Virus record (IMG/VR): IMGVR_UViG_3300036846_001448
Coordinates: 1-45,122 of that record
Length of the DNA: 45,122 nt
Strand: one strand, 5' to 3'
From: a virus
Below the pieces are notes generated by a model. That model saw only the letters and a list, made by a program, of their open reading frames with translations. It made no database searches and was not told the DNA's origin. A program made the position numbers and the translations under genes. Position 1 is the first letter of the stretch. Every line of letters starts with the position of its first letter. This document shows, in pieces, positions 5,601 through 25,824 of this stretch.

Positions 5601-6196
5601 TTGCCGTGCTCAGTGCCACCATGGCTCCCGGCGGCCCGCGCTGGTCGGCCACCAATTTTGTGGGCGGCTATGCGCCCACCCAGCAGAATTCCTTCTTTGT
5701 GGATGCCGGCGCCACCTACTCCGGCGCCCCCGCGACTACGGTCTCCGGACTCACCTGGCTGGAAGGGCAAACCGTCTCGGTTCTGGCCGATGGCGCGGTC
5801 TACCAAAACAAGGTGGTCTCGGGGGGAGCAATCACCCTCGAGCAGCCCGCCTCGCTGGTCACGGTGGGGCTTCCCTACACCTCCGACCTGGTAACCCTTC
5901 CGCCCGTTCTGCAGGTGGACGGGTTCGGGCAAGGGCGGATGCTGAACATCAATCGCGTGTGGATGAAGATCTTTGAATCCAGCCAGATCCTGATTGGGCC
6001 CGACGAGGATCACCTCACTCCCTACAAGCAGCGCACCACCGAGCCCTGGGGCACGCCGCCGGCGCTCATCACCGGGCAGATCGGCCCCATCGTGGTTACT
6101 CCCGAATGGGGTGCGGGGACGGTGTTCATCCGCCAGCAAGATCCTCTGCCTCTCACCGTGCTGGGGCTAACGATCGAACTGAGCATAGGAGGTTAA
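2606..6196 (+). CDS. Tail tubular protein B / nozzle (T7 gp12-like), enlarged by inserted carbohydrate-binding-type domains
   Basis: 1196 aa. The N-terminus ...RSFAGGELGPDMYGRIDDQKYQSGAALVRNFITLPQGPAQNRPGFEYV is typical of gp12-like proteins. Internal segments:
- YYTAGDAVTYGGSAWQSVKADSGGITTPGTNPDIWALL (CBM5/12-like);
- SWSAVATALRYNIYKMRNG (FN3-like);
- NQLQNPNFEEGTAGW... (CBM4/9 or galactose-binding-like). Confidence 0.7.
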   Translation: MASSRTVNRSFAGGELGPDMYGRIDDQKYQSGAALVRNFITLPQGPAQNRPGFEYVNSTKNNGIARLIPFIYNIDQTTIIELGDQYARFHTDAETVLYDSSTLRAWQGPAGATTYTLATPTVIYWFGHALLSGDPVRFYATSSDPLPIGLQVGYTYIADVIDVSNFYIKDPATGLRVGLSAPPGGTVTYTNYPGAGTTSTSVSLAPNQVGSHTSGAVGGLANVPISGGSAFVNASFSVQGYSYQGPFQAELQYSLDGTNWHTLYTLNTQTVVNVRVSIALTNLDLLSLRTYISATTGPSGSVSLTAAINSWSVDVPSGGSSGATATIICYRYYTAGDAVTYGGSAWQSVKADSGGITTPGTNPDIWALLPANAVYEIPTPYAAADVFDIHYVQSADVITLVHPNYPPAELKRLAATTWTLTNVVFQPSILPPTSVTTAASPGFKVKIQSISGTLITTQTNHTLSLGDQIYIDSLVANTGGDKSGFYLVSEVPVNTSTGALILNELRVMDYNGVQLDVTSWGGYTGSPTIQLATKSYDPTSHYVVTAIASDGVDESQISSDVSVLNNLDVPGSFNTISWSAVATALRYNIYKMRNGLYGYIGETPNLSFVDDNIGPDFSITPPNYEVMFSGPGNYPAAVGYAEQRKCYAGTDNQPQNLWMSNSGTEDTFSYSLPIKDTDRIAIAIASREANIIRHIVPMTELMLLTSSAEIVIKPANSDVITPGTISAKPQTYVGANNVQPSVINTALVYCAARGGHVRELGYAWTVNGFTTGDLSLRAAHLFDNLTLVDMCYQKAPRPILWFVSSGGNLLGLTYVPEEQIGAWHHHDTQGVFESVACVAEGGEDRLYAVIRRRINGTTVRYVERMASRILSGTNQLQNPNFEEGTAGWIFQSDLVNGGSWQLGSAGPLYVAIWNGAGTAAVINRQHIACSSGTEIEASCRALGEPGATGDAVLRINFFDASDAIIQNFASSPCPNNYNWTTLSLLSTAPAGTAYAMIDFAVLSATMAPGGPRWSATNFVGGYAPTQQNSFFVDAGATYSGAPATTVSGLTWLEGQTVSVLADGAVYQNKVVSGGAITLEQPASLVTVGLPYTSDLVTLPPVLQVDGFGQGRMLNINRVWMKIFESSQILIGPDEDHLTPYKQRTTEPWGTPPALITGQIGPIVVTPEWGAGTVFIRQQDPLPLTVLGLTIELSIGG

Positions 6197-6197
6197 T

Positions 6198-7031
6198 GTG
6201 GGCGACTTGCCGTATGGCGTTGTTCCCTTCGTGACTCCCGACGACCCGGCCTACTCCGGAGGCGCCTACCCAGGCCCTAGGCCTAATCTGCTCACCTCGT
6301 CGTGGAATGAGATCGAAAAGTTTTTCGGCATCAATGGTAAAACCACCGCCGATACGACGGGGATGACTCCAGACCAGGCCACGGCTGCCAGCACCGCGGC
6401 CACCATCCGCAACGTGGGCATGTTGGGCATGGCCTTCGGAGCCGCCAACCAGGCGGTGGGAAGCTACTACGCCGCCAAGAGTGCGCAGTACCAGGCTCAG
6501 TCGCAAGCCGCCACCTACCAGTACCAGGCGGATATGAACGCCATCAACGCCCGTACCCACGAGTACGCTGCCCAGGGCATCCTCGAGGCAGGCAAAACCC
6601 AGGTCCAGCAATACACCATGCGCGCGGGGCAAGAGGAAGCCACCACCACCGCGGAGATGGCCGGCCACGGGGTTCAGTTGGGGCAGGGAAGCGCCCGGGA
6701 TATTACCGCTTCTCAGAACATCGTCAAGCAGCTGGACGTCAACCAGATGAACGCCAACACGGTGCGCGCCGCGGCTAACGAGAGGATGGGAGCCACGCAG
6801 TTCGCCAATCAGGCGGCCCTGGACAGAATCTCTGCCCAGAATCTTAAAGCCGGAGCGGGAACCATCAGCCCATTTGGCGCAGCGGCCACGAGTTTGCTGG
6901 GCTCGGCTACTACCTTCGGCAGTCAGTGGGACTGGCGTCGGCGCCTGCAGATGCAGTTGGCTAGTCCTTCTCAAGGACAATATCTGGCCTACTCTTATCC
7001 GGGCTATGGTGCCGCGGGAGGACTGCCTTAA
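6198..7031 (+). CDS. Internal virion / ejection protein (gp14-like position)
   Basis: 277 aa with a GTG start and SD TAGGAGG. Ala/Gln-rich helical protein (AAKSAQYQAQSQAATYQYQADMNAINAR...) directly after the nozzle gene, as for podoviral core proteins. Confidence 0.55.
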   Translation: MGDLPYGVVPFVTPDDPAYSGGAYPGPRPNLLTSSWNEIEKFFGINGKTTADTTGMTPDQATAASTAATIRNVGMLGMAFGAANQAVGSYYAAKSAQYQAQSQAATYQYQADMNAINARTHEYAAQGILEAGKTQVQQYTMRAGQEEATTTAEMAGHGVQLGQGSARDITASQNIVKQLDVNQMNANTVRAAANERMGATQFANQAALDRISAQNLKAGAGTISPFGAAATSLLGSATTFGSQWDWRRRLQMQLASPSQGQYLAYSYPGYGAAGGLP

Positions 7032-9169
7032 TGCCGCCCATGCTGGTTCCGAGTATCGCTCCCGACCCCGGCCGTGCTCCGGATCTCCAGGGCACCCCCG
7101 TGGCGCCGATGTCGAATGCCGCTCCAGGGCAGATCTCGCAGATAGGCGAAGCCGTGTCGCGAGCCGGCTCGGCGGCGTTTCAAACCGGGCAGACGATGGG
7201 CGACAAGATCCAGGACACGATCGACGACGCCAACGTGCGCGCCGCGGAGACAGGCTTCCTCCAGAATGCCCAGGGCATCGTGACCGACTACACCCACCAG
7301 CTGGGCAAGAACGCAATGGACGCCTACGATCCGGCCACCCAGGCTCTCTCGAAAGCCAAGCAGGATGCCGCGGCCGGCCTCACCAATCCCATCCAGCAGA
7401 AGATGTTCAATTACGTTTCCAGCCAACATTTGATGATGTTCGGCCGGCAGATGGGGGACCACAATTTTCAGCAAACAGTTAATTACCGCGTCAAGGAGGG
7501 CAACGATTCGGCCGATGCTCAGGGGCAACTGGCAGCCCAGAACTATTCCGACTGGCAGCGTCCGGACGGGAATTACAACCAATACAAGACCAACACTATA
7601 AACGAAATCACCGCGGCCGCCCATCTGTCCGGAATCGGTCCGGGGGCTCAGCTCACGGCCGCCATTCAGCAAAAGACCTCCGGCATTGCGGACAGTGTTC
7701 TGCTCCAGATGACCGGCCAGGAACACTACGACGAAGCCAAAACGTTTTACGAAGCGGCCCTGGCCAATCATGAGCTCGACAAGCAGATGCAGGACAAGTG
7801 GGGCCCGGCGATCGAGCAAGGGCACAAGTCAGAGAAGGGCAAGAACCTGGGCGACAAGTGGGTACAGATAGCCATGGGAGCCTCGCCCGATCAGCAGAGG
7901 ACCCAGCCCATTCCTGGGGGCGCGATAACCGCAGTTCCGACTGTAGGAGAGCCTGGCCGGCAGGAGCCTGTCCAGGGCCCAATTACCGGTGTGATGGGAG
8001 ATCCGCGGGCCGGCCATGAGCACCATGGAATCGACACCGCTGTCCCTGTAGGAACTCCGGTGAAGGCGCCGGCGGATGGGACCGTGAGTCGGGTATGGGA
8101 CGACGGAAAAGCCGGGGGCGGGCTGTCGATGGAGGTGACTTACCCCAGCGGCTACAAAGAATATTTCATGCACCTTTCTGCACAGAATTATCAACAGGGG
8201 CAGAAGGTAACCCAGGGAGGCGTCCTGGGGCTGAGCGGACAGAGCGGGAACGCGACGGGCCCGGTTTTGCACGATGCGATGAAGGATCCCAAGGGACAGT
8301 GGGTCGACCCCCGCAACGTCTCCCCAGCCCCCAAGGACCCGCTGCAGTTCACCAATCCCAACTGGCTAGAAACCGCACTCCAGGGAGTGCGCCAGGATCC
8401 CGACTCCGACGATCGCGAAAAGGCGATCGCCGAGGCGCAGGTTTTGAAGCAGTACAACATCGCCAAAGATGTCGCGACCCAGAAGTACACCCAGGTGAGA
8501 AATACGGCCGTCGACTGGAAATACGCGCACGGCTCGCTCAATGGCCTAGATGCGAACGTCATGGCCAGTCTCAAACCTGAAGATCGATTCAATCTCTCCA
8601 AGCCTATCGAAGCCGACACCGATCCAGGGACCATGGCGGGGTTCATCCTCAACCCCGAAACCCTTACCGTGGACAACGTGAAGGCCGCCTACACTGGCGG
8701 CAAACTCTCGAACGGATCCTACCTGTCGCTCTTAACCGATGCCACTAAGTTGGCCAACAAGCCGGACAAGGTTTTGGCCGCCACCGTGGAGGCTGATCGC
8801 ATCAAGTTCTTTGCCGACCAGGCCGGCATTCCCCAGTTCAGCACTCAAACCGACGACCAGAAGCGCGAATACAACCAGCTCCTGGTCCGGATTCAGAGTG
8901 ATGTCAACACCGCCCAAATCAACAAGGGAGGTGAGCTTACCCAGGCGGAGAAGGATGCCATCACCCAGCGCAACCTGCAGCAGTACTCGATTAGCCACCT
9001 GCGCAGCGCCTGGAGCCCGTTGGCGTGGCTGGGGAATACGACTTACACCGACAAAGCTTATGGCTTCCAGATGCCTCCCGGGGCGACTGGAACGGTCACG
9101 AACAAGAAGGATGGCAAGCTGCACTATACCGACGGGAAAAATGATTTAGGGGCGGTGCCCGAACCATGA
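7031..9169 (+). CDS. Internal virion protein with an M23 (LytM-type) peptidoglycan endopeptidase domain (gp15-like position)
   Basis: 712 aa. The M23 signature is HEHHGIDTAVPVGTPVKAPADGTV...LSGQSGNATGPVLHD. The HxxxD motif is present, and the second HxH motif reads V-L-H. TAATG overlap with the upstream gene and ATGA overlap with the downstream gene. Confidence 0.8.
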   Translation: MPPMLVPSIAPDPGRAPDLQGTPVAPMSNAAPGQISQIGEAVSRAGSAAFQTGQTMGDKIQDTIDDANVRAAETGFLQNAQGIVTDYTHQLGKNAMDAYDPATQALSKAKQDAAAGLTNPIQQKMFNYVSSQHLMMFGRQMGDHNFQQTVNYRVKEGNDSADAQGQLAAQNYSDWQRPDGNYNQYKTNTINEITAAAHLSGIGPGAQLTAAIQQKTSGIADSVLLQMTGQEHYDEAKTFYEAALANHELDKQMQDKWGPAIEQGHKSEKGKNLGDKWVQIAMGASPDQQRTQPIPGGAITAVPTVGEPGRQEPVQGPITGVMGDPRAGHEHHGIDTAVPVGTPVKAPADGTVSRVWDDGKAGGGLSMEVTYPSGYKEYFMHLSAQNYQQGQKVTQGGVLGLSGQSGNATGPVLHDAMKDPKGQWVDPRNVSPAPKDPLQFTNPNWLETALQGVRQDPDSDDREKAIAEAQVLKQYNIAKDVATQKYTQVRNTAVDWKYAHGSLNGLDANVMASLKPEDRFNLSKPIEADTDPGTMAGFILNPETLTVDNVKAAYTGGKLSNGSYLSLLTDATKLANKPDKVLAATVEADRIKFFADQAGIPQFSTQTDDQKREYNQLLVRIQSDVNTAQINKGGELTQAEKDAITQRNLQQYSISHLRSAWSPLAWLGNTTYTDKAYGFQMPPGATGTVTNKKDGKLHYTDGKNDLGAVPEP

Positions 9170-12100
9170 GCCCAGACTCGAGCCCCGTGCCCCAGAGTTC
9201 CGACCTCGATTTCTCGACGTTCACGCCACTCCAGGAGACGCAGCAGAGCTCCGACCTGCGCCAGTCGCTCTCCTATGGGGTCACTCAAAATCCGGATGAG
9301 TACGCCAAGCTTCTCAAGCAGCAGCAGTCTACCGGAATGTCCCCGCAAGTTGCGCAGTCTGGCGCCGCCCAGACCCAGCAGGCGATCGATGTGGAATCCC
9401 TGCAGCCAGATCAGATGGGGATCACACATCCCCGCACCGCGGCCTGGACCGCGAATCCGGATAACGCTGCCGTGGCGGGAGCCGGCGAGTTGCACCGCCA
9501 GACGCGCATCGAACAGCACGCGGCTACCATTCGCGCCTATCAGCCGACCTGGAGAGATGCGGTCACCAATGCCGCTCAGTCCGCCTTCAATTTCATGGGC
9601 GGAAATGGCGACCTTAAAAATAAAGTCTTCTCCTATCCCGCCTTCCGTCTGGGCATCGAGGCTCTGGCCGGCACTGAAGAGACGCTGGGCAACGTCGGCT
9701 CATTCTTCGGATGGCACGGGGACAACGCCACTAGCCTGAACCAGCTGCAGATTGCGGCACGATCGCTCGAGCCCGGGCAATTTGGCGCCGAGGAGACCGG
9801 CCTCGACACTGTAGCCCGCCAGGCTGGTCCCATGATTCCCGCCATGCTGCTCACCGGGGGGACAGGATATCTGGCGCGCACGTTAGGGGTGAGCCCCCTG
9901 GCGGCCAAGGTTCTGGCCGGAATTACCGTGGGCGGCATGTTTACCTCCGACCAGGCCGGCAACACGTACTCGTCGCTCCGGGAATCTGGAGCCAGCGAGT
10001 ATCAGTCGCGCCTGGCGGCCAACCGGGTAGCGGCCCTGACCTCGCCGGCCAACATTCTGCTGGGCTTCCAGGAAATGGTTCCTTTCTTGCGCGACAACCC
10101 GTTTCTGGCATCTCTCGGATTGGGCGGAGTGCAGGGCGCATCTTCGCAAATTGCGCAGAACGTGGTCACCGGGCAGAAATGGTATCAGGGCACGGCCCAG
10201 GGCGCGGTGCAGGGCGCCGCAGCCCAGGCCGGCATGCATCTAGGGTTCGGATTCCTGGATTCGATGGGATCGATTATCGCGGAGTCCGAAGCTTCCCAAC
10301 TCAAGCAGCGCCACCTGGGAAAGTTTGAAGAGTCCCTGCAGTCAATCTTCTCTGGCGATCAAAGCCTGCGCGTTCCTGTGGAACAGTTCGACACCTACTT
10401 CCAGTCCCGGAATATGGATCCCGCGGTCGTCGCTTCCAACCTCGGCGTAGAGAACTACGGAGAAGCGAAGGCGATTGGAGAGGGCGCGGAAGTAGAGATC
10501 CCGCAGGCCAATTTCCATGCCCGCCTCGAGCCCGAGCACCAGCGCGGATTGATGCCGGATATCGTCGACCCCTCGATCGGCATGACCCACCGCCAGGCGG
10601 AAGCCGCCACCGAGGAGCTCAAGCAGTTTGCCGAATCAGGAGGCTTGGAAAGACTGGCGCAGGCCACCGCGGAAGTCGATGAGGAGACCAAGAAATCGGA
10701 CGAGTACAAGACGGTTCATGAGCAGATCCGGCAGCAGTACGTAGCCGCCGGAGAAACGCCGGCGGTAGCCGATGACCTGGCCACCCAACATGCCAATGTT
10801 TACTCCAACCTGGCGCGCGAATCGGGATTGAAGCCCAGCGAGCTGCTGAATCTTTACCCTCCGCGGATCGTCAGCGGAGAGGCTCCGGGCGCACCTCCTG
10901 GAGAGCCTATGGCGCCCGCTGCCGGGGAAGCAGAACCGCCGGTCGAGAAAGGAATGACGCGCCTCTATCACGGCTCGGCTTCGGGCGAGACCGAGGGTAA
11001 AGCATGGTTCACGACGGATCGTTCCTATGCCCGCGACTATCGCCCCGGCTCGCAGCTTCAATACGCCGACGTTCCCACCAGTGAACTGCAGAGTCGCCTG
11101 GGATGGGATGAGGAAACGCAAGGTCCATTTAAGGCTTCGACGCACAATCTCGAACTTAATTCCTCCGAGACGGGACCGCGAAAGGTCATGCCGGCGGCTG
11201 GAAGGGAGCCCCTCTACCAGTCCGCAACGATCAGGTCCGGCAAGGAAACCCTGGAGAAGTTCGGTCTCGATCCGGGCAAGAGCTACACCACCCGCGAGAT
11301 CGCCGCCGCCCTCGAAGCGCGCCAGCGCGAGAAATATGGAACCATCGACCCGACAGACCGCAGCCCCGAATCTTTAAAGAAAATCGCCAAGTGGATGCAG
11401 GCGGAAGTTGAATTCGAGATGCAGAACCCCGGCAAATCAGGGGTGGGCTGGTATAGCGAAAAATTCCAACGTGCCATCGACATCATGGGCGATACCTATC
11501 CGGAACTAAAGACTGACAAGAATGCCCGCGACTTGATGACGGCTCTCATCGCCATCACTTCTGATGGCCAGAAGGTCGTTCCCAACTTCATGCAGGCGAT
11601 GGATATCTATGGTCGCTTCCGCGAAGGCGGCGAGACGGAGGGCAAGTTTACCACCAGCCGCGGCCATCAGCGCATCGCCTCCATCCAAAACAACCTGGCA
11701 GTGCTTCAGCGCTTACACGACACGATGGGTCCGGAAGGTATGCATACATACCTGATGCAGGAGAAGACCATCTCCGAGCTGAAGCAGATCGCTAAAAAGA
11801 ACGGCCTAGAACTAAAGTCCGATTACCAGGCGCACATCAAGATGCCGATGTCTGCTGTGGAATTCGGACCGAAACTGGGAGCCTTCTACGCCAACCTGAT
11901 GGGCGCGCATGGCTACCTGACGATGGACCGCTGGTGGTCGCGCACCTTCAATCGTTATCGCGGAACGCTGCTGCAGGCCCCCACCGAGGCTGGCCTGGCG
12001 CGCTTCAAGGAATTGCTCGGCAAGCCAGATATGAGCAATGACGAGGCTATTGCGGCAACCGTATCTCACCGCAATTCCTATGCCGACAAGGGCTACAAGA

Positions 12101-15100
12101 ACGGCACCGAAATCGAGAAAGCCGCAAACACCATCTACAAGGCGGCATTCGAGAATTTGGAGGACGCTCCGTTCAATGCCAAGGACCGCACGTTCATGCT
12201 GGATGCGGTCAACAAAGCGCAGCAAGCCCTTCAGAAGAAAGGTTATAATCTATCAGTAGCCGACATTCAGGCAATTCTCTGGTACTACGAAAAGAGGCTG
12301 TATGGCGAACTCGGTGCACGGCAATCGGCAGACGTCAGTTACGAAGACGCCGCCCGCCGGGTCGTTGAAGCAGGACAGCGAGGGAAACAGCCTGTTTCTG
12401 GGGAGCCCGGAGAACCACCGGCGAATGGTGGAGCAGCTGCGAGCGGACTTCCTGTCGGCGAAGAAACCTTCCTCCAATCCGCTCCTGGTGGCGGCCCCGC
12501 CGGCGAGCCTGCCGGAGGAGCCCGAGGATGGTTCCGAATCCGCCCCGATGGATCTTACGAAATAGGCAAGACCTCCATCGGGGATCTCTCCACCTTCATC
12601 CACGAGCCCGCCCATTCCTACCTGGAATTGATTTCCCAATTGGTCAAGCGCCCCGAGGCCAGTGACGCGCTCAAGGCTGATTGGCAGAAGATCCAGGATT
12701 TCCTTGGCGCCAGGGAAGGCGAGCCGCTCACCCGCGAGCAGCATGAAAAATGGGCGCGCGCCAACGAGCAATACATGCGCCAGGGCAAGGCTCCCAGTCA
12801 GGATCTAAAGGGCGTCTTTCAGCGCTTCGCGGTCTGGCTCTCCTCCATCTATCACCGGGCCACCGACCTGGGCGTGGAGCTCAGCCCGGAGATTCATGGC
12901 GTCTTCGATCGCCTCTACGCCTCCGAGCAGGGCGTGAACCGGGTCGCCGATGAGGATGGCCCCAAACTCTTCAATTCTGCCGAGGAAGCTGGCTGGACAG
13001 AAGCCGATTTCAAAGCCTACGCCCAGCAACATGGACGCTCCATTGAGACCGCCAAGGCAGAGATCCTGGCCCGGCTGAATGAAGCCGCGGCCCGCGAACA
13101 AGCTTCGGACCGCAAAGCAGAAGCCTCCAACGTGCGCGCCGCCAGCACGGAAAGAATCGATGCCATGCCGCAGTACCGCGCCATCAAAGCCCTGCGCAAA
13201 GGCGCGATGGAAGACGGGACCGAAGTCTCCATCTCTCGCGACCAGCTGGTCAGCCTGATCGGTGAAGACCGGGTCAAGGCTCTGCAGAAGCAGCATCCCG
13301 GACTCTACCGCAACGAAGGCGGCCTGGATCTCGAGACCGCGTCGGAGATGATGGGATTCCCGGACGCCAACACCATGATCTCTTCGATGGAGAATTCTCC
13401 ACGCCGCGGCGATGCGATCGAGCAAGCGACCCGCCAATACATGACCGCCAAGCATGGCGACGTTCGCTACGACGGCACTCTCCCCGACGCGGTACGACTA
13501 GCGGTCGAGAACGATGTGCGCGCGTCGTCGATTCACAAAGAACTGGCTGCCCTGCAGAAACGGGCAGCGGAAACCGAGTCCCTGCGCGGCAAAGTCGCGG
13601 AGCTGAAAGCGCAAGAGAAGGAACGACGCGCCGCCCTACGTGCTATCCAAGTGGCGCCCATTGCCGCTTACCGCCAGGCGGCCAAGCAGGCCATTGATGG
13701 CAAGGCGGTGGCCGACATCGAGCCTACGCGTTACCTCGATCAGAGCCGCAAGTTTTCGCGCGAAGCTTTCGACGCCCTACGCAGAGGCGATGTCCAGGCC
13801 GCGGCCGCGGCCAAGCACAAAGAGCTGATGAACCACTTCCTGTTCCGGGAGGCGGCCGAAGCCAAAGAGTTCATCGGCAAATTTGAAGCCTACACCCAGC
13901 AGGCGGGACAGAAAGGGATCCAGACTCGCCTGGGAAGGGCCGGGGGAGATTTTCGCGATCAGTTCAACCGCCTGATGGCGCGCTATGGACTGGGCGCCAA
14001 GCCCAACCAGCCTACCCCGCGGCCGCTCGCCCAGTGGGCCCAGGAGCAGTACCTCAATGGGGAAGAGCCGGCCGTCAACGCCAGCTTGTTTGACGAGATG
14101 CGGGTGATCAACTATCGCGACGCTTCGGTGGCCGAGGCACGAGCGGTTTACGATGCGCTGCGCAATATCCAGAAGCTAGCTTCCCGGCAACTGGAGACCA
14201 TCGTCCACGGCAAGAAGATTGTGTTTGCGACCGCGGTCCAGGAGATGTCGGACAGGGCGCGATCCGTTAATCGCCAAAGGCCGGAGCGGGTGCTGGAACG
14301 CAATCGAACTTTTAGCGAGGGCGCCCTTAATCTGGCGAAGCGCGGCGACGCCTTGCTGCTAAAGGTCGAACGCATGATCGAAAGGCTTGATGGAGGCAAG
14401 ACCGGTCCCTGGCACGACAATCTCTGGCACCTGGCCGCGGATTCCCAGGGCCGGGAGTATGCGCTCCAGGAAGAGGTGACCAAGGCTCTCGGAGACCAGT
14501 TCGCGAAAATGCCGGCCGAGTTGCGCGCGCGTATGTTCGACAAGGTGACGGTGCCCGGAGTCGACGAGACTGTGACTCGCCACGATCTCGTCTCCTGGGC
14601 TCTGAATATTGGCAACGAGGGCAACCTCGATCGCCTGCAAAAAACCTTCCTGGCCCACGGTTGGGATGTATCCGCGATCGAGTCGGGCGTATCCCAGTTA
14701 AGCCGGCAGGAGTGGGATCTGGTTCAGAATGCCTGGAACACGCTTGAGATCCTGCGCCCTCATATGGTCGAACTCGAAAGGCGAATGACCGGTCTTCCTC
14801 CGGTGCTGGTGGAATCAAAGCCCTTCACGAGAACTCTCCCCGATGGGGAAACCGTGCACCTTGAAGGGGGCTACTACCCCATCGCCTACGATCCGCGCTA
14901 CTCCGCGGCCGGGGTTACGGCTGATGCCTCGAAGACTGCTCAGAATCAGATGGAAGCCGGCTATGTAAGGGCGGCCACTTCGCGCGGATACACCAATGAG
15001 CGCACCGGGTCGGCGGGCCCCCTTCTGCTCGACTTCGAGAGGGTCCTCAGTTCGCATACGGCCAAGATGGTGAAAGACCTCACTCATCGCGAGTTCATGC

Positions 15101-16281
15101 TGGCGGCCAACAGGCTCCTTCTTCATCCCGACGTCCGCTCCGCCATTCGCGAGACTCTGGGGCCGGCCTATGAAGAACAGTTCATGCCTTGGTTACGGAC
15201 CATCATCAACGATCGCAACGGGTCCAACGCTCAGGGACTGAGCGATTTCTCCAAGATGGTCCGCACCCTGCGCTCCAACCTGGTAACCGGCACGTTGAGT
15301 TACAAGTTGTCGACGACCCTCCTGCAGTTGACCCACGCTCCGCGCATGTTGCTCTATACGAAGCCCGGAGCCTGGATGCAGGCCATGATCGACTTTGCCG
15401 CCCATCCCGCGGAGATGACCCAGCAGATCAGAGACCTTTCCCCCAACGAGATGCGCTTTCGCGGCGACTCGATCGATCGCGACATCCGCGAGATGATGCG
15501 CGACATGACCGGGCAGACGGGGTTTCGCAAGACGGTCTTGAAGGCCGGCTCGAAGACCTTGGAGTGGACCGACCATGCGCTGAGCTTTCCTCTCTGGCTC
15601 TCGGTCTATCGCGAGGGACTCAAGGAAAATGTCGACCTACCTGAGGAAAAGGCTAAGTATCTGGCCATGCAAAAAGCCGACTCTGCCATTCGCCTGGGAT
15701 TGGGATCCTCGGCACCCAAAGACATGGCGGCCATCCTCAGAGGAAATGATCTGGCTAAAGTGCTGACCATGTTCTACGGCTTCCACAATGGGATCTACGG
15801 GCAGATCAGCGACATGGTTCGTAACACCCGTTCGGTGCGCGATGTCCCCAAGCTGACCTACGGACTGGCCATGGCGGTTCTGGTTCCCGCGGTCCTATCC
15901 CACCTGGTGACCGGGGACGGTCCCAAGGATGATGAGAACCCGGGACTGTGGGCGGCCCAGCGAGCTCTGTTCTTCGGGCTCGACACCCTTCCTGGAGTGC
16001 GAGATTTGGCCACTGCCATGGAGCGCAAGTCGGATGTCAAGGTGTCTCCCCTGGCCGACCTGATGGAGCACACGGGGAAACTCCTGCTGGAGGCGAGAAA
16101 AGAACACAAGGACTGGGCCGGCATGGGCCTGGACGCTCTCCAGGTAGCCGGCGGGTGGGTTGGGGTTCCAGGCACCACTCAGATTCTCAAGCCGCTGCGC
16201 TACTGGCGCCAGGTCGAAAAGGGCAAGATCTCTCACCCAAATCTCTGGGATGCCTTCGTGGGCAGTGCGCCCCGAAAATAG
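9166..16281 (+). CDS. Giant internal virion / DNA-ejection protein (gp16-like position) with polyvalent-protein architecture
   Basis: 2371-aa uninterrupted ORF. A hydrophobic Gly-rich segment lies near aa 230-360. Pro/Gly/Glu linkers separate the modules. Motifs include TRLYHGSASGETEGKAWFTTDRSYARDY (nt ~10954-11040) and the HExxH motif FIHEPAHSYLE (His codon at 12601). The C-terminal third is long and helical. Confidence 0.75.
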   Translation: MSPDSSPVPQSSDLDFSTFTPLQETQQSSDLRQSLSYGVTQNPDEYAKLLKQQQSTGMSPQVAQSGAAQTQQAIDVESLQPDQMGITHPRTAAWTANPDNAAVAGAGELHRQTRIEQHAATIRAYQPTWRDAVTNAAQSAFNFMGGNGDLKNKVFSYPAFRLGIEALAGTEETLGNVGSFFGWHGDNATSLNQLQIAARSLEPGQFGAEETGLDTVARQAGPMIPAMLLTGGTGYLARTLGVSPLAAKVLAGITVGGMFTSDQAGNTYSSLRESGASEYQSRLAANRVAALTSPANILLGFQEMVPFLRDNPFLASLGLGGVQGASSQIAQNVVTGQKWYQGTAQGAVQGAAAQAGMHLGFGFLDSMGSIIAESEASQLKQRHLGKFEESLQSIFSGDQSLRVPVEQFDTYFQSRNMDPAVVASNLGVENYGEAKAIGEGAEVEIPQANFHARLEPEHQRGLMPDIVDPSIGMTHRQAEAATEELKQFAESGGLERLAQATAEVDEETKKSDEYKTVHEQIRQQYVAAGETPAVADDLATQHANVYSNLARESGLKPSELLNLYPPRIVSGEAPGAPPGEPMAPAAGEAEPPVEKGMTRLYHGSASGETEGKAWFTTDRSYARDYRPGSQLQYADVPTSELQSRLGWDEETQGPFKASTHNLELNSSETGPRKVMPAAGREPLYQSATIRSGKETLEKFGLDPGKSYTTREIAAALEARQREKYGTIDPTDRSPESLKKIAKWMQAEVEFEMQNPGKSGVGWYSEKFQRAIDIMGDTYPELKTDKNARDLMTALIAITSDGQKVVPNFMQAMDIYGRFREGGETEGKFTTSRGHQRIASIQNNLAVLQRLHDTMGPEGMHTYLMQEKTISELKQIAKKNGLELKSDYQAHIKMPMSAVEFGPKLGAFYANLMGAHGYLTMDRWWSRTFNRYRGTLLQAPTEAGLARFKELLGKPDMSNDEAIAATVSHRNSYADKGYKNGTEIEKAANTIYKAAFENLEDAPFNAKDRTFMLDAVNKAQQALQKKGYNLSVADIQAILWYYEKRLYGELGARQSADVSYEDAARRVVEAGQRGKQPVSGEPGEPPANGGAAASGLPVGEETFLQSAPGGGPAGEPAGGARGWFRIRPDGSYEIGKTSIGDLSTFIHEPAHSYLELISQLVKRPEASDALKADWQKIQDFLGAREGEPLTREQHEKWARANEQYMRQGKAPSQDLKGVFQRFAVWLSSIYHRATDLGVELSPEIHGVFDRLYASEQGVNRVADEDGPKLFNSAEEAGWTEADFKAYAQQHGRSIETAKAEILARLNEAAAREQASDRKAEASNVRAASTERIDAMPQYRAIKALRKGAMEDGTEVSISRDQLVSLIGEDRVKALQKQHPGLYRNEGGLDLETASEMMGFPDANTMISSMENSPRRGDAIEQATRQYMTAKHGDVRYDGTLPDAVRLAVENDVRASSIHKELAALQKRAAETESLRGKVAELKAQEKERRAALRAIQVAPIAAYRQAAKQAIDGKAVADIEPTRYLDQSRKFSREAFDALRRGDVQAAAAAKHKELMNHFLFREAAEAKEFIGKFEAYTQQAGQKGIQTRLGRAGGDFRDQFNRLMARYGLGAKPNQPTPRPLAQWAQEQYLNGEEPAVNASLFDEMRVINYRDASVAEARAVYDALRNIQKLASRQLETIVHGKKIVFATAVQEMSDRARSVNRQRPERVLERNRTFSEGALNLAKRGDALLLKVERMIERLDGGKTGPWHDNLWHLAADSQGREYALQEEVTKALGDQFAKMPAELRARMFDKVTVPGVDETVTRHDLVSWALNIGNEGNLDRLQKTFLAHGWDVSAIESGVSQLSRQEWDLVQNAWNTLEILRPHMVELERRMTGLPPVLVESKPFTRTLPDGETVHLEGGYYPIAYDPRYSAAGVTADASKTAQNQMEAGYVRAATSRGYTNERTGSAGPLLLDFERVLSSHTAKMVKDLTHREFMLAANRLLLHPDVRSAIRETLGPAYEEQFMPWLRTIINDRNGSNAQGLSDFSKMVRTLRSNLVTGTLSYKLSTTLLQLTHAPRMLLYTKPGAWMQAMIDFAAHPAEMTQQIRDLSPNEMRFRGDSIDRDIREMMRDMTGQTGFRKTVLKAGSKTLEWTDHALSFPLWLSVYREGLKENVDLPEEKAKYLAMQKADSAIRLGLGSSAPKDMAAILRGNDLAKVLTMFYGFHNGIYGQISDMVRNTRSVRDVPKLTYGLAMAVLVPAVLSHLVTGDGPKDDENPGLWAAQRALFFGLDTLPGVRDLATAMERKSDVKVSPLADLMEHTGKLLLEARKEHKDWAGMGLDALQVAGGWVGVPGTTQILKPLRYWRQVEKGKISHPNLWDAFVGSAPRK

Positions 16282-16507: not shown

Positions 16508-17242
16508 ATGACTGTCAGCTCCACGGTGCGAAAAGCAGGGCCGTTCACCGGCAATGGGTCGACGTCCACATTTCCCTTCAGCTTCAAAGCCTTCACCGAC
16601 CAGGATCTGGAGGTGGTCTGGCTGCCGGCGGCCACGGGAATAGAACACACCCTGGTGCTCGATTCCGATTACAGTGTGGCCCTGAACACTGACCAGGATT
16701 CCAGCCCGGGCGGATCAATTACCTTACTGGCCGGCCCTCTGGCCAGCGGCGATACGCTGGTCATCACCACCGACATTCCCGAATTGCAGCAGGCCGACAT
16801 CACCAACGGGGGAGGGTTCTACCCCGAGGTGATCACCGACGCTCTCGACTACGTGACCATCCTGGTGCAGCAGCTGGTGATCCTGGCCGAGTCCTCGCTG
16901 CGCTTCCCTCTGAGCGACGATCCGGGTTCGACCGAACTGCCGGCCGCCTCACAAAGAGCCAACAAGGTGCTGGGGTTTGGCCCGGATGGGTCCGTTTCAA
17001 TGTTTGCCGGAGGATTTTCCACGATGTTATCGCGCGCCAATGGGGGGCTCTCAGGCTCGCTCGACGGCACCAATCGCACGTTCAGTATGCCCTATGTGCC
17101 GTTCTTTCCCCAGGTATCGCTGCTTTGCCTTTCCGGGTCCATCCTCCCCCATGAGCTCTACACCATCAACGGAAACACGGTGACAATCAACACTCCAGTC
17201 CCCCCGCAAAGAGGAGACACCATTGAACTCTATTGCTCATAA
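16508..17242 (+). CDS. Tail fiber / fiber-adaptor protein with a T7 gp17 N-terminal-like domain
   Basis: 244 aa. AGPFTGNGSTSTFPFSFKAFTDQDLEVVWL...DSDYSV...GSITLL...GDTLVITTDIPELQQADITNGGGFYPEVITDALDYVTILVQQL follows the Y.GdG....F.f.F..........dY......G.i.......G..l.i.R pattern of podoviral fiber N-termini that dock on the tail. Confidence 0.7.
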   Translation: MTVSSTVRKAGPFTGNGSTSTFPFSFKAFTDQDLEVVWLPAATGIEHTLVLDSDYSVALNTDQDSSPGGSITLLAGPLASGDTLVITTDIPELQQADITNGGGFYPEVITDALDYVTILVQQLVILAESSLRFPLSDDPGSTELPAASQRANKVLGFGPDGSVSMFAGGFSTMLSRANGGLSGSLDGTNRTFSMPYVPFFPQVSLLCLSGSILPHELYTINGNTVTINTPVPPQRGDTIELYCS

Positions 17243-23247: not shown

Positions 23248-24558
23248 TCACCTCTGCTTGAAGTGCAGATACTCTCCGTCAAGGTAGGTTGGGACTGAAT
23301 CGAGAAACCCGTTGCGATTCTTGGCAATGATCAGCTCGTCTTCGCCGGTGAAGCGTGAGGTTTCGATGTCGATCGGACGATAGGGCAGGACTACCACGTG
23401 AGCGACCTCCTCGAGAGCGCCAGATTCTTTCAGGCTGTGCATATTGGGCTTGGAGTTGATATCCCGGCCTTGGGGCCGGGGGCTCTGCGAGAGCAACAGT
23501 ACGGCGACGTTCTCGGTTTTGGCGAAGTCGCGTAGCCGGTAGGCTACCTGCGCGACCTGTTCGCGGATTTCCTTCCCAGGGGCGGAGATGATCTGGGCAT
23601 AATCGACAACCAGCAACTGAACGCCGTGGTGGCGGCGCTCTCGCGTGGCGTTCCAGAGGAGTCTTTCAAGGGTGACTGTGGCGGCATCGGAGATGTAAAG
23701 CGGCAGTTGTCCCAGGGCCAGCAGTCCCGAGCGCACGCGCTCCCGTTCGGTCAGGTTCAGAAGGCGTGGCTCGCGTATCTTCCACACCGGCATGCCTTCG
23801 AGCAGGCAGGCGGTGATATCGATCCACGACTTTTTGCTCATCTCTCCAGAATGCACCAGTGTCGGAATTCCCCGCAGGAGGGCACCGGCGACGATCTGCC
23901 GGGCGAGAGTCGTCTTCCCGCGTGAAGGTGCGGCTCCGACCACCCATAGCTCGCCCAGCCTCATCCCTCCCCCTGTGAGTTCGTCCAGGCCGCGGATGCC
24001 TGTTGGGATGATTTGAACTTCTTGCGGGTCGTCTACAAGCGCCCTGATGCTTTCCAGGGCTAGCTCTGCGGAGCTCCAGACCTCGTTGCCAGAATTCTGT
24101 TCCGCGGCGTCAGTGAGGGCCTTCAGGTGATCCCACAAGACCTTGAGGGCTGGCTCGGATTGATCTTCGGCGCGGGCCATTGTGACTGAGCAAGCTTTTA
24201 TCATCTGGCGCAGCAGGCTTTTGTCTTTCACGATCTCGACGTAATCGCTGATGACTGGCTGCCGCGGAAGGCCCTCAGTCAGAGATGCCAGGTAGGACAT
24301 CCCGCCCATGCCGGCTAGTTCCTTGTGGCGGTCCAACTCCTGGCCGAGCGTGACTAGGTCAACGGTGTGATCGGAAGCGAGCAGTTCACCTACGCGGCGG
24401 TAGATGCGCTGATGAGAATCAAGCCAAAAATCATCCACTGCGAGTTTGTCTTGAGCCTCGAGGTAATACGCGTTGTCGAGCAAGGTGGCGCCCAGGATGG
24501 TTTTTTCGGCGTAGGTATCGGCAGGGAATCCGCGTTCCTCGGATACATGAGGGTTCAT
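23248..24558 (-). CDS. dnaB: Replicative DNA helicase, DnaB family
   Basis: 436 aa. N-domain AEKTILGATLLDNAYYLEAQDKLAVDDFWLDSHQRIYRRVGELL. Walker A GIRGLDELTGGGMRLGELWVVGAAPSRGKTTLA. Walker B LLVVDYAQII. Confidence 0.9.
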   Translation of the reverse strand: MNPHVSEERGFPADTYAEKTILGATLLDNAYYLEAQDKLAVDDFWLDSHQRIYRRVGELLASDHTVDLVTLGQELDRHKELAGMGGMSYLASLTEGLPRQPVISDYVEIVKDKSLLRQMIKACSVTMARAEDQSEPALKVLWDHLKALTDAAEQNSGNEVWSSAELALESIRALVDDPQEVQIIPTGIRGLDELTGGGMRLGELWVVGAAPSRGKTTLARQIVAGALLRGIPTLVHSGEMSKKSWIDITACLLEGMPVWKIREPRLLNLTERERVRSGLLALGQLPLYISDAATVTLERLLWNATRERRHHGVQLLVVDYAQIISAPGKEIREQVAQVAYRLRDFAKTENVAVLLLSQSPRPQGRDINSKPNMHSLKESGALEEVAHVVVLPYRPIDIETSRFTGEDELIIAKNRNGFLDSVPTYLDGEYLHFKQR

Positions 24559-25337: not shown

Positions 25338-25412
25338 GAGGGATCGCTCCCCGCGAACGGCGCATGCGCGAATACATCAAAGCCCGGAGGCTTCCTGGCA
25401 AGCATCAGTGTT

Positions 25413-25470: not shown

Positions 25471-25579
25471 TGAAAAATACCTGCTGGCGCAGGGTGCGGG
25501 GATCAGCCGCGTCTAAATGATACCACCGGAAGACGTGGCTAAGCTGTTAAAGGGGTGTTTGAAGCTTTCAAAGGCTCTT

Positions 25580-25816: not shown

Positions 25817-25824
25817 GGCGCCTC

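What the first reader, a model, noticed from the sequence alone, without database searches (positions are those of the whole stretch)
9166..16281. 2371-aa injected giant with polyvalent-protein architecture: possible ART-like and HExxH effector modules
The gene sits where T7-like phages encode gp16, but it is nearly twice as long. Pro/Gly/Glu linkers (GEAPGAPPGEPMAPAAGEAEPP; GEPGEPPANGGAAASG...GGGPAGEPAGG) break it into modules.

Between the linkers lie two notable segments:
- (a) GMTRLYHGSASGETEGKAWFTTDRSYARDY (nt ~10954-11040). Its HGS plus aromatic-strand layout recalls H-Y-E type ADP-ribosyltransferases.
- (b) a module with FIHEPAHSYLE (HExxH, nt 12601-12615) followed by ...EKWARANEQYMRQGKAPS..., a zincin-like signature.

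Phage and conjugative-element polyvalent proteins, delivered with the DNA to disarm host defences, are described as having exactly this kind of ART, metallopeptidase and helical-domain mix. If this is correct, the phage injects enzymatic effectors as part of its ejectosome. The ART assignment rests on a short motif and is the weakest part of the argument.
Basis: partly seen in the sequence, partly recalled or inferred. Interest (0 to 1): 0.65.

Follow-up and report, generated by a model that had tools for sequence, protein, structure and literature searches.

The report
Giant polyvalent phage ejection protein
This 2371-residue gene is the phage's gp16-type injected internal protein, built like those of Bordetella phage BPP-1 and its relatives with a swappable cargo section; the HExxH motif is a feature of the whole family, and the proposed ADP-ribosyltransferase is an 85-residue module with only weak ART resemblance.

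Summary
In detail: one ORF (9166-16281, 2371 aa), two Pro/Gly/Glu/Ala linkers, one HExxH, and an 'RLYHGS...AWFTT' segment. The polyvalent-protein reading is well supported. The N-terminus hits Pfam LPD22 above cutoff. Eight syntenic counterparts (BPP-1 Bbp10, AF, CP2, Jess A and others; 2039-2986 aa) share one plan: LPD22 unit, variable cassette slot, invariant HExxH module, ~1200-aa C-terminal half. Their slots hold PBECR1, PBECR5, LPD23 or true ART-PolyVal domains. Giant size is therefore normal for this group. HExxH is not a special effector here. It is invariant in 89/89 relatives, with two invariant downstream Glu, and lies at the cargo/anchor junction. A confident model puts it in a helix after a beta-hairpin, but no zincin fold or Pfam family is retrieved, so a processing metallopeptidase is likely but unproven. 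The 'ART-like' segment is a real, shuffled ~85-aa domain (54 clusters, absent from Pfam). Its evidence for ART kinship is consistent but sub-threshold: hhalign P 4e-4, and top Foldseek hits Tpt1/KptA, AcrIF11, Scabin and PARP15 at E >= 0.07. The ~380-aa module after it is weakly DUF7178-like. Verdict: a new member of a known kind, of moderate interest.

The parts
9166..16281 (+). Whole gene: giant polyvalent internal-virion (IVP-D/gp16-position) protein, 2371 aa
   Evidence: ORF and translation. Synteny. Homology of aa ~1117-2360 to BPP-1 Bbp10, AF gp16, CP2 ORF24 and others.
9166..10875 (+). Conserved N-terminal unit (aa 1-570): LPD22, a Gly/Ala/Ser/Thr-rich low-charge stretch (aa ~215-375) and a helical acidic part (aa ~365-570)
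   Evidence: aa 333-576 match the equivalent regions of the UFJF_PfDIW6, Carin1, Manatee, BPP-1 and CP2 proteins. Composition.
9259..9477 (+). LPD22 domain (aa 32-104)
   Evidence: Pfam PF18834, 32-34.5 bits against a curated cutoff of 28.6. The same domain scores 50-91 bits at the N-terminus of seven of the eight counterparts; in Octadecabacter BD1 it scores 24.3 bits, below the cutoff.
10876..10941 (+). Linker 1, Pro/Gly/Glu/Ala-rich (aa 571-592)
   Evidence: P+G+E+A fraction up to 0.88 in a 25-aa window.
10942..11190 (+). Mini-domain (aa 593-675), ART-like, not in Pfam. Conserved R599, Y601, H602, W614, Y621, Y625, R626, Y633, D635, P637, Q652, E663
   Evidence: 54 representative clusters at E<=1e-3. 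Family alignments. AF2 model with pLDDT 88 and pTM 0.79. Sub-threshold ART-superfamily fold hits. hhalign against ART-PolyVal.
11263..12399 (+). Cargo module 2 (aa ~700-1078), function unknown, remotely DUF7178-like. Invariant core FGPKLGAFYANLxGxxGYLTMDRWWxRTFNRYRG
   Evidence: 24 homologues. Alignment A6. 9 of 17 members hit DUF7178 below cutoff, best E 2.7e-4. No PDB relative. Also present in the Octadecabacter BD1 and Manatee phage giants.
12400..12519 (+). Linker 2, Pro/Gly/Glu/Ala-rich (aa 1079-1118)
12520..13065 (+). HExxH module (aa 1119-1300): beta-hairpin, HExxH helix and four to five further helices; putative zincin-like processing metallopeptidase
   Evidence: Invariant in all counterparts. 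More than 120 homologues. AF2 model with pLDDT 84. No significant fold or family match.
12601..12615 (+). HEPAH motif (H1146, E1147, H1150). Candidate third ligands are E1194 or E1201 (nt 12745-12747, 12766-12768)
   Evidence: H, E and H each 89/89; E1194 125/126; E1201 125/125. The motif lies in helix 26-43 of the model and the Glu residues in helix 73-89.
13066..16278 (+). Conserved C-terminal half (aa 1301-2371), the IVP-D-like ejection/anchor part
   Evidence: PHROG 9880, E 6.5e-251. 23-30% identity to eight phage counterparts over about 1100 aa. No PDB relative by sequence.
15844..15921 (+). Only strongly hydrophobic, TM-like segment (aa ~2227-2252)
   Evidence: Kyte-Doolittle scan.
7031..9169 (+). 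Upstream partner: IVP-C-position internal protein with an M23 peptidoglycan endopeptidase domain
   Evidence: PHROG and NCBIfam M23 hits at aa ~327-431.
6198..7031 (+). Upstream partner: internal virion protein (IVP-B-like)
   Evidence: phrog_418, 'internal virion protein', E 1.4e-7.

Best explanation
The gene encodes the phage's IVP-D (T7 gp16-position) ejection protein, in the polyvalent form typical of BPP-1/AF/CP2-like podoviruses. Two conserved parts frame a variable cassette slot bounded by Pro/Gly/Glu/Ala linkers: an N-terminal LPD22-containing unit (aa 1-570) and a C-terminal ~1250-aa unit (aa 1119-2371).

In this phage the slot holds two cargo modules. One is an ~85-aa mini-domain with an ART-like core (H602, W614, E663). 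The other is a ~380-aa DUF7178-like module of unknown chemistry.

Inferred mechanism: the protein is packaged in the capsid core and ejected through the tail ahead of or with the DNA. The C-terminal half, together with the IVP-B-like and M23-peptidase proteins encoded upstream, builds the trans-envelope conduit. The cargo reaches the cytoplasm. The invariant HExxH module at the cargo/anchor junction acts as a zincin-like metallopeptidase that cuts the polyprotein, probably in or near the linkers, to release or activate the cargo.

Sub-confidences: polyvalent IVP-D protein with swappable cargo, about 0.85. HExxH module being a catalytic metallopeptidase, about 0.6, and specifically self-processing, about 0.4. 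Mini-domain having an ART-superfamily fold, about 0.5, and being an active NAD-using transferase, about 0.3.
For: Shown here:
- Synteny with the T7-type structural module.
- LPD22 above the curated cutoff.
- Eight counterparts share LPD22, a variable slot, HExxH and the C-terminal half. Their slots hold PBECR1 (BPP-1), LPD23 (AF), ART-PolyVal (Jess A, Octadecabacter BD1, Manatee phage) or PBECR5 (Carin1).
- In metagenomic fragments the HExxH module is directly preceded by PBECR1/2/3, LPD3 or ART-PolyVal domains.
- HExxH and two downstream Glu are invariant. In a pLDDT-84 model HExxH is in a helix after a beta-hairpin and the Glu residues are in a later helix.
- The only PDB sequences matched at E<=10 by the 44-sequence profile are Spartan SprT, aligned on its catalytic helix. 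Five of 44 members give weak Peptidase_M78 hits.
- The mini-domain has 54 clusters, nearly all inside giant proteins. Carriers scanned hold ART-PolyVal, LPD38, LPD22, InPase or DNA methylase domains.
- The mini-domain model has pLDDT 88. Its Foldseek hits at ranks 1, 2, 6, 11 and 21 are Tpt1 (1wfx), KptA (9ldc), AcrIF11 (6kyf), Scabin and PARP15 (identities checked).
- BFVD hits include a MuF-type protein, an LPD38 protein and an ART-PolyVal-like protein.
- hhalign against ART-PolyVal aligns strand 1 (YH), strand 2 (WFST with YFT), the helix (YAxxY with AxxYA) and strand 3. The score is 26.8, against 11-17 for reversed and decoy profiles.

From the literature:
- Bbp10 is listed as an IVP-D homologue, and IVPs are said to host cytoplasm-destined domains (PMC4819975).
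- Zincin-like MPTases are the hub domain of polyvalent proteins, with proposed autoprocessing (PMC5512222).
- A 2811-aa polyvalent protein of podovirus phi24B is present in virions by proteomics and is proposed to be an ejection protein (bioRxiv 10.64898/2026.04.10.717836).
Against: - No experimental datum exists for this protein or for any BPP-1-type counterpart. Packaging, ejection, cleavage and enzymatic activity are all inferred.
- The HExxH model retrieves no zincin fold (best Foldseek E 0.42, TM about 0.2) and no peptidase family above threshold. It shows a two-stranded hairpin, whereas the described zincin core has a three-stranded sheet plus an N-terminal helix.
- In this phage the motif is HEPAH. 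A Pro inside the catalytic helix is unusual; relatives have HEsGH or HEtGH.
- I could not inspect model coordinates, so the metal-site geometry is untested.
- No individual ART hit for the mini-domain is significant (best E 0.07, TMq 0.39). The block-shuffle control gives only p about 0.02.
- The mini-domain has four strands, fewer than canonical ART cores, and Trp replaces the strand-2 Tyr.
- The mini-domain co-occurs with full ART-PolyVal domains in 3 of 54 carriers, so it is not simply their substitute.
- The query copy departs from the family consensus near the last strand (KASTHNLEL against KGFTWNVEL).
- The C-terminal half shows no detectable sequence similarity to anything in the PDB.
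Confidence: 0.7

Rival explanations
1. The HExxH module is an effector or wall-breaching protease rather than a self-processing one. It would cleave host proteins such as defence or housekeeping factors, or peptidoglycan cross-links, during entry.
For: Iyer et al. explicitly allow MPTases of polyvalent proteins to act as effectors (PMC5512222, read). The phi24B authors propose a peptidoglycan role for the metallopeptidase of gp47. The motif residues are invariant, as expected of any active enzyme.
Against: Peptidoglycan hydrolysis is already supplied by the adjacent internal protein: M23 here, and a protein annotated as endolysin or lysozyme in BPP-1 and others. The module is the one constant enzymatic-looking element while the true effector slot varies. 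It always sits exactly at the junction of variable cargo and conserved anchor, a placement that is more readily explained by cis-processing.
Confidence: 0.2
2. The mini-domain is not an enzyme. It would be a small non-catalytic adaptor, for example a ligand-, nucleotide- or protein-binding or packaging/spacer module, and its YHG...WFST resemblance to ARTs would be convergent or vestigial.
For: It is only about 85 aa with four strands. There is no Pfam ART hit. All fold matches are sub-threshold. It co-occurs with full ART-PolyVal domains in P0149, P0175 and P0190. Trp replaces the canonical strand-2 Tyr.
Against: The invariant or near-invariant residues are mostly polar or aromatic (R, Y, H, W, Y, R, D, Q, E), the pattern typical of a binding or catalytic pocket. 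Five ART-superfamily proteins appear among the top 21 PDB fold hits, far more than expected if the similarity were random. By my own estimate, not computed here, ART folds are about 1% or less of PDB chains. The order of conserved elements matches ART-PolyVal.
Confidence: 0.4
3. The protein is purely structural: a long helical ejectosome or tape-like component. The HExxH and HGS motifs would have only structural roles, such as metal-stabilised folding, and no enzymatic cargo would be delivered by this particular phage.
For: Most of the C-terminal 1200 aa has no recognisable enzymatic domain. Neither cargo module of this phage matches a characterised enzyme family above threshold.
Against: Orthologous slots in sister phages carry bona fide nuclease (PBECR1, PBECR5) and ART-PolyVal domains at E 1e-8 to 1e-22. 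Module 2 has 13 invariant residues, mostly Gly or polar (G, K, N, T, D, W, R), across 17 sequences at 25-66% identity. The absolute invariance of H-E-x-x-H plus two Glu over 89-126 sequences exceeds what a structural helix needs.
Confidence: 0.1

Closest known systems
Bordetella phage BPP-1 Bbp10 and its counterparts (Pseudomonas phages AF gp16 and UFJF_PfDIW6, Xanthomonas CP2 ORF24, Caulobacter Jess A gp039c, Cobetia Carin1 gp32, Octadecabacter BD1/OANV1 gp16)
   Same: Same gene position and the same plan: LPD22, variable slot, invariant LSTFxHExxHxYLE module and a ~1200-aa C-terminal half. Identity is 23-32% over about 1100-1200 aa. Octadecabacter BD1 and the Manatee phage also share module 2.
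   Different: The cargo differs. Those phages carry PBECR1, LPD23, ART-PolyVal or PBECR5; this one carries the mini-domain plus a DUF7178-like module. There is no DNA-level relative among 50,697 phage records. GenBank names for these proteins ('lysin', 'crystallin beta/gamma motif-containing protein', 'lysis protein') are not supported by anything found here.
Polyvalent proteins of phages and conjugative elements (Iyer, Burroughs, Anand, de Souza, Aravind 2017, PMC5512222)
   Same: A giant multidomain protein with LPD domains, unrelated modules joined by linkers, a zincin-like HExxH hub and ART-type cargo in relatives. Predicted delivery with the DNA.
   Different: The HExxH module and the mini-domain match no Pfam polyvalent family (MPTase-PolyVal, ART-PolyVal) with HMMER. 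Whether they fall in one of that paper's 12 MPTase clades could not be checked, because the supplementary alignments are not held.
T7 gp16 / IVP-D ejection proteins; N4 gp50 virion RNA polymerase; phi24B gp47
   Same: The last large gene of the internal-virion-protein block. Hardies et al. place Bbp10 in the IVP-D family and note cargo domains embedded in IVP-D homologues, such as the N4 vRNAP (PMC4819975). phi24B gp47 is a 2811-aa polyvalent protein found in virions by proteomics.
   Different: I detected no sequence similarity to T7 gp16 or any solved structure. T7 gp16 carries a lytic transglycosylase (my own knowledge), whereas here wall hydrolysis sits in the neighbouring M23 protein. The cargo types also differ.
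ART-PolyVal (PF18760; H-Y-D ARTs of polyvalent proteins) and minimal ART-fold proteins (Tpt1/KptA NAD lobe, AcrIF11)
   Same: The order of conserved elements in the mini-domain matches: strand 1 with aromatic-His, strand 2 with an aromatic residue followed by Ser/Thr, a helix with YAxxY, strand 3, and a late strand with an acidic residue. The top fold hits are Tpt1/KptA and AcrIF11.
   Different: It is about 85 aa against about 140, and has four predicted strands. Trp replaces the strand-2 Tyr. The acidic residue is a Glu in an NxE strand, rather than the family's strand-5 Asp. There is no HMM hit, and all structural matches have E >= 0.025.
Zincin-like metallopeptidases (MPTase of polyvalent proteins; SprT/Spartan; ImmA/IrrE M78)
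   Same: HExxH in a helix that follows a beta element, with an invariant Glu in a downstream helix after an insert. The sole PDB sequence hit is the Spartan catalytic helix.
   Different: There is no significant fold or profile match. A two-stranded hairpin replaces the three-stranded sheet plus N-terminal helix. This phage has Pro at the third motif position.

Membership tests
Polyvalent proteins (Iyer et al. 2017) | Contains domains of the polyvalent-protein domain network (e.g. LPD families) | tested here: met
   LPD22 (PF18834), 32-34.5 bits against a cutoff of 28.6 at aa 32-104.
Polyvalent proteins (Iyer et al. 2017) | Several unrelated modules in one giant polypeptide, with the module set varying between related elements | tested here: met
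   Eight counterparts carry PBECR1, LPD23, ART-PolyVal or PBECR5 in the same slot. The query has two different cargo modules between linkers.
Polyvalent proteins (Iyer et al. 2017) | Encoded by a phage or conjugative element and delivered into the host with the DNA | not testable with these tools
   Phage origin and structural-module position are shown. Packaging and ejection are inferred from Bbp10 being listed as an IVP-D homologue (PMC4819975) and from phi24B gp47 proteomics.
T7 gp16 / IVP-D ejection protein family | Position: last large gene of the IVP block, after tubular tail B and before the fibre genes | tested here: met
   Gene order established.
T7 gp16 / IVP-D ejection protein family | Detectable sequence or profile homology to T7 gp16 | tested here: inconclusive
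   A profile of the C-terminal half finds nothing in the PDB, and PHROG 9880 is unannotated. Hardies et al. report an HMM-HMM link for Bbp10 (PMC4819975), which I did not reproduce.
ART-PolyVal (PF18760) | Match to the family HMM at or above the gathering score | tested here: not met
   No hit even at E<=10 for aa 593-850. True members in sister phages score 58-81 bits.
ART-PolyVal (PF18760) | His in strand 1, Tyr in strand 2, Asp in strand 5 (H-Y-D; PMC5512222) | tested here: inconclusive
   H602 is invariant in predicted strand 1. The strand-2 aromatic residue is an invariant Trp (W614), not Tyr. An acidic residue (E663, conserved in at least 90%) lies in the last predicted strand, and only four strands are predicted.
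ADP-ribosyltransferase superfamily (fold level) | Significant structural match to ART-fold proteins | tested here: inconclusive
   Foldseek against the PDB: Tpt1 1wfx at E 0.07, probability 0.66, TMq 0.39. KptA, AcrIF11, Scabin and PARP15 are also in the top 21, and none has E<=1e-3. hhalign probability is 35%, with an empirical p of about 0.02.
Zincin-like metallopeptidase (MPTase of polyvalent proteins) | HExxH in an alpha-helix, plus a Glu ligand in a following helix | tested here: met
   HExxH lies in model helix 26-43. Invariant E1194 and E1201 lie in helix 73-89.
Zincin-like metallopeptidase (MPTase of polyvalent proteins) | [quoted passage not shown] | tested here: not met
   Only a two-stranded hairpin is predicted. 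The best Foldseek PDB hit has E 0.42. No Pfam peptidase reaches its cutoff; there are weak M78 hits in 5 of 44 members. Spartan scores E=1.
Zincin-like metallopeptidase (MPTase of polyvalent proteins) | Zn binding and proteolytic activity | not testable with these tools
No biochemistry exists.
DUF7178 (PF23802) | Match to the family HMM at or above the gathering score (27 bits) | tested here: not met
   The query scores 15.2 bits (E 0.02). Nine of 17 family members hit, all below cutoff, best E 2.7e-4. This points to a remote relationship at most.

The most novel reading that the evidence does not exclude
The ~85-aa mini-domain (aa 593-675) is a previously undescribed, minimal and catalytically active branch of the ADP-ribosyltransferase superfamily with an H-W-E site. 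At roughly the size of the Tpt1 NAD lobe, it would be among the smallest ART-fold units. It is shuffled as a cassette among dozens of giant injected proteins, and it modifies a host protein or nucleic-acid target at the moment of DNA entry. The invariant HExxH module would be the dedicated protease that frees such cargo from the ejectosome anchor.
Probability: 0.25. Interest if true: 0.65.

Novelty: new member of a known kind. Interest (0 to 1): 0.4.

Why it matters
The result shows that a whole assemblage of BPP-1/AF/CP2-like podoviruses uses its gp16-position ejection protein as a modular delivery vehicle. The chassis is constant (LPD22 unit, HExxH module, C-terminal conduit part), and one slot is exchanged between nucleases, ADP-ribosyltransferases and unknown modules. 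This gives clear, testable handles:
- The invariant HExxH site, for asking whether injected polyproteins are self-processed.
- Two uncharacterised cargo families, the 85-aa ART-like mini-domain and the DUF7178-like module, which are candidates for new anti-defence or host-takeover activities.

It also corrects database names such as 'lysin' and 'crystallin motif protein' now attached to these genes. The general concept was already published in 2016-2017, so the value lies in the specific modules and in the clean natural 'cassette swap' series, not in a new principle.

Tried and rejected
- Direct Pfam and NCBIfam scans of the whole protein and of seven sub-segments at E<=10 gave no ART-PolyVal, MPTase-PolyVal or any peptidase family.
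- A first profile comparison with thin alignments (2 against 4 sequences) matched only the pentapeptide YHGS. It was repeated with 51 against 9 sequences and calibrated against controls.
- Sequence-profile searches of the PDB found nothing useful for the HExxH module (only Spartan at E=1), the mini-domain, module 2 or the C-terminal half.
- Foldseek of the HExxH model against the PDB returned only generic helical bundles. I therefore do not claim a zincin fold.
- I looked for DNA repeats at the two linkers that might mediate cassette exchange. Only short two-copy matches of 17-19 nt at 79-88% identity turned up, which are probably chance.
- I considered that the mini-domain is a degenerate ART-PolyVal occupying the same slot. 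I rejected this because three proteins carry both, and because only 3 of 54 carriers have this backbone.
- I considered the GenBank labels 'lysin', 'lysis protein' and 'crystallin beta/gamma motif'. No muralytic or crystallin domain was found in the query or in the N-terminal halves of eight counterparts.
- A literature search for virion proteomics on BPP-1-type giants found none in the held library.
- A metal-site geometry check was impossible because model coordinates are not exposed.
Full report
**1. Observation**

The window is a complete 45,122-bp JGI/IMG contig. The ORF at 9166-16281 (+) is real: 2371 codons with no internal stop. Its start overlaps the stop of the upstream gene.

All quoted peptides are present at the stated places:
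- Linker 1 is aa 571-592.
- 'GMTRLYHGS...ARDY' is aa 596-625.
- Linker 2 is aa 1079-1118.
- HEPAH is aa 1146-1150 (nt 12601-12615) and is the only HExxH in the protein.

One chance HExxH is expected 0.07 times in a protein of this composition.

The surrounding genes are major capsid (5-1033), tubular tail A (1916-2599), tubular tail B (2606-6196), an IVP-B-like internal virion protein (6198-7031), a 712-aa internal protein with an M23 peptidoglycan endopeptidase domain (7031-9169), the giant gene, and then a tail-fibre N-terminal adaptor gene (16508-17242).

**2. Giant size is normal for this phage group**

A tblastn search against 50,697 phage records finds 51 records, all below 60% identity. 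In most of them the match covers only aa ~1130-2290. I retrieved eight counterparts:

| Phage | Length (aa) |
|---|---|
| BPP-1 Bbp10 | 2052 |
| UFJF_PfDIW6 | 2039 |
| AF gp16 | 2213 |
| CP2 ORF24 | 2478 |
| Caulobacter Jess A | 2039 |
| Octadecabacter BD1 gp16 | 2986 |
| Manatee Spring podovirus | 2792 |
| Cobetia Carin1 gp32 | 2854 |

All lie after an internal lysozyme or M23 protein and before the fibre genes. 'Twice as long as gp16' is therefore true against T7 but ordinary here. No phage record is similar at the DNA level.

**3. Polyvalent architecture is confirmed**

Pfam places LPD22 ('large polyvalent protein-associated domain 22') at aa 32-104, above the curated cutoff. Seven of the eight counterparts have LPD22 at the N-terminus at 50-91 bits; Octadecabacter BD1 has a sub-cutoff match (24 bits). 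Between the N-terminal unit and the shared C-terminal half they carry different domains of the polyvalent-protein repertoire:
- PBECR1 nuclease in BPP-1.
- LPD23 in AF.
- ART-PolyVal in Jess A, Octadecabacter BD1 and the Manatee phage (58-81 bits).
- PBECR5 in Carin1.

Pairwise BLAST shows that the query shares aa ~333-576 and aa ~1117-2360 with them. The intervening segment is shared only in part: module 2 matches the Octadecabacter and Manatee proteins. The family plan is thus a conserved N-terminal unit, a variable cassette slot, and a conserved HExxH module plus C-terminal half.

This is the architecture defined by Iyer et al. 2017 (PMC5512222). Hardies et al. 2016 (PMC4819975) had already listed Bbp10 as a T7 IVP-D homologue and noted that IVPs host 'domains destined for the cytoplasm'. 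A 2026 preprint reports a 2811-aa polyvalent protein in phi24B virions by proteomics and proposes it is an ejection protein.

**4. The HExxH module (aa 1119-1300)**

The motif is not special to this phage. 'LSTF[LI]HExxHxYLE' is present in all eight counterparts, exactly at the start of the shared half.

A profile search found more than 120 homologues. Across all aligned sequences:
- H1146, E1147 and H1150 are each invariant in 89/89.
- E1194 is conserved in 125/126.
- E1201 is conserved in 125/125.
- G1207 and P1210 are essentially invariant.

On metagenomic fragments the module is directly preceded by PBECR1/2/3, LPD3 or ART-PolyVal domains.

AlphaFold2 with a 44-sequence alignment gives a confident model (pLDDT 84). 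It has a beta-hairpin, HExxH in helix 26-43, an insert helix, and the invariant Glu residues in helix 73-89. This is the element order Iyer et al. describe for polyvalent-protein MPTases: an HExxH helix, a variable insert, then a Glu helix.

Membership could not be demonstrated, however:
- Foldseek against the PDB gives nothing better than E 0.42 and TM ~0.2.
- Pfam has no match. Five of 44 members give sub-threshold Peptidase_M78 hits and one gives M3.
- The only PDB sequences at E<=10 for the 44-sequence profile are Spartan SprT, aligned on its catalytic helix at E=1.
- The sheet is two-stranded, and this phage has Pro in the motif (HEPAH).

From memory, not tested here, the downstream 'HEQFARGFEAY' resembles the 'ExFAxxF' third-ligand helix of lethal-factor-like and ImmA/IrrE zincins.

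I conclude that a catalytic metal site is likely (about 0.6). Its fixed position at the cargo/anchor junction favours a processing role over a host-directed effector role. Peptidoglycan hydrolysis is already provided by the adjacent M23 protein.

**5. The 'ART-like' segment (aa 593-675)**

An exhaustive HMMER search of 1.84 billion representatives found 54 clusters at E<=1e-3. Nearly all are inside giant proteins of up to 4435 aa. This is a genuine ~85-aa domain with a sharp signature:
- Invariant: R599, Y601, H602, W614, Y621, D635.
- At least 90% conserved: S/T616, A622, Y625, R626, Y633, P637, Q652, G/A657, E663.

It is absent from Pfam. Only 3 of 54 carriers have the HExxH/IVP-D backbone, and 3 also carry a full ART-PolyVal domain. 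Other carriers scanned hold LPD38, LPD22, InPase or DNA methylase domains. It is therefore an independent cassette shuffled among polyvalent proteins.

The AlphaFold2 model is confident (pLDDT 88, pTM 0.79). Its elements are b1 (..RLYHGS), b2 (AWFT), a helix (YARDY), b3 (LQYADVP), a helix, and b4 (NLEL).

Evidence for ART kinship is consistent but sub-threshold.
- **Profile comparison.** hhalign against nine ART-PolyVal domains aligns b1, b2, the helix and b3 in register, with pairwise P 4e-4 and probability 35%. The score is 26.8, against 11-13 for reversed profiles and 14-17 for unrelated families. Four of 200 block-shuffled templates reach the real score.
- **PDB fold search.** Rank 1 is Tpt1 1wfx (E 0.07, probability 0.66, TMq 0.39). 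Rank 2 is a KptA/DNA/ADPR complex, rank 6 is AcrIF11 6kyf, rank 11 is Scabin and rank 21 is PARP15. The identities of 1wfx and 6kyf were checked.
- **BFVD fold search.** Hits include a MuF-type protein, an LPD38 polyvalent protein and an 'ART-PolyVal-like' protein. The best hit overall has E 0.025.

Evidence against:
- There is no HMM hit.
- Only four strands are predicted.
- Trp replaces the strand-2 Tyr of the H-Y-D site that Iyer et al. describe for ART-PolyVal.
- The query copy deviates from consensus before the last strand.

I rate an ART-superfamily fold at about 0.5 and actual transferase activity at about 0.3.

**6. Module 2 (aa ~700-1078)**

This is the largest cargo element. It has 24 homologues and a strongly conserved core, FGPKLGAFYANLxGxxGYLTMDRWWxRTFNRYRG, with 13 invariant residues. 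In one fragment (P0022) its C-terminal end is followed by a true ART-PolyVal domain.

Nine of 17 members hit DUF7178 below cutoff. The PDB gives nothing.

**7. C-terminal half (aa 1301-2371)**

It matches PHROG 9880, of unknown function, at E 6.5e-251. It is 23-30% identical to the counterparts, has no PDB relative by sequence, and contains the protein's only TM-like segment at aa ~2227-2252. By position, and through Bbp10's published IVP-D assignment, it is the ejection or conduit part.

**8. Mechanism**

Shown: the domain plan, the conservation patterns, the cassette variability and the structural-module synteny.

Inferred: packaging in the capsid core; ejection with the DNA; conduit formation by the C-terminal half together with the IVP-B-like and M23 proteins; delivery of cargo to the cytoplasm; and HExxH-mediated cleavage near the linkers.

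**9. Verdict**

The polyvalent-protein reading is right and is now backed by domain hits and a comparative series. The HExxH is a family-wide and probably processing element, not a special effector. The ART call remains a plausible but unproven remote relationship for a new small domain family.

Because both the polyvalent-protein concept and cargo-bearing IVP-D proteins are published, this is a new member of a known kind. It carries two uncharacterised cargo families that are worth biochemical follow-up.

Noticed in passing
window 2606-6196 (+): The tubular tail B (nozzle) gene is unusually long at 1196 aa. It matches phrog_376 in two stretches, with only aa 1-871 covering profile positions 1-536 of 712, which suggests large insertions or a C-terminal extension.
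   Followed up: no
window 17223-20015 (+) and 19754-22690 (+): Two large ORFs (930 and 978 aa) downstream of the fibre-adaptor gene overlap by about 260 nt in different frames and have no PHROG match. They lie in the lowest-GC part of the window (0.53-0.56 against about 0.61). They may be horizontally acquired receptor-binding or depolymerase genes, or a mis-called start.
   Followed up: no
window 23248-31278 (-) and 37283-37960 (-): A temperate-looking early region: DnaB-like helicase, lambda O-like initiator, RecT and RecE-like recombination pair, ParA-like partition protein and a serine recombinase/invertase. ParA together with a serine recombinase could indicate a plasmid-prophage lifestyle.
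   Followed up: partly
P0023 (metagenomic protein, aa ~540-640), not in the window: Directly after its copy of the mini-domain, P0023 has a second small segment, 'DIVLYRAGDSDILTGATSFSPDLETAEAYL'. It has the same layout but Arg in place of His and an SFS strand, which recalls R-S-E type ARTs. If real, H-type and R-type mini-modules occur in tandem. Pfam finds nothing in P0023.
   Followed up: no
L003 (phage AF gp16, aa ~807) and L004 (CP2 ORF24, aa ~926): The AF and CP2 giants carry a second, different HExxH motif (VVMHEVQHAIQ; VVLHEVLHGVT) inside their variable slot, upstream of the family-wide one. These may be additional MPTase-type cargo not recognised by Pfam at E<=0.01.
   Followed up: no
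GenBank annotations of counterparts (L001, L005, L006, L007): Counterparts are named 'crystallin beta/gamma motif-containing protein', 'lysin containing a beta/gamma crystallin motif' or 'lysis protein'. No crystallin or muralytic domain was detected in their N-terminal halves or in the query. These labels seem to be propagated annotation errors.
   Followed up: partly
window 9166 versus JGI gene call: The public gene call for this protein (P0145) is 2364 aa, 7 residues shorter than the ORF from the ATG at 9166. That ATG overlaps the upstream stop codon (ATGA-type coupling), so the true start is ambiguous.
   Followed up: no
window 9800-10290 (aa ~215-375 of the giant): A Gly/Ala/Ser/Thr-rich (44%), low-charge (10% KRDE, net charge 0) stretch with repeated small-residue patterns (GGxxG, AxxxG) sits inside the conserved N-terminal unit. 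It could be a membrane-active or glycine-zipper-like segment. It does not reach the hydropathy threshold used.
   Followed up: no
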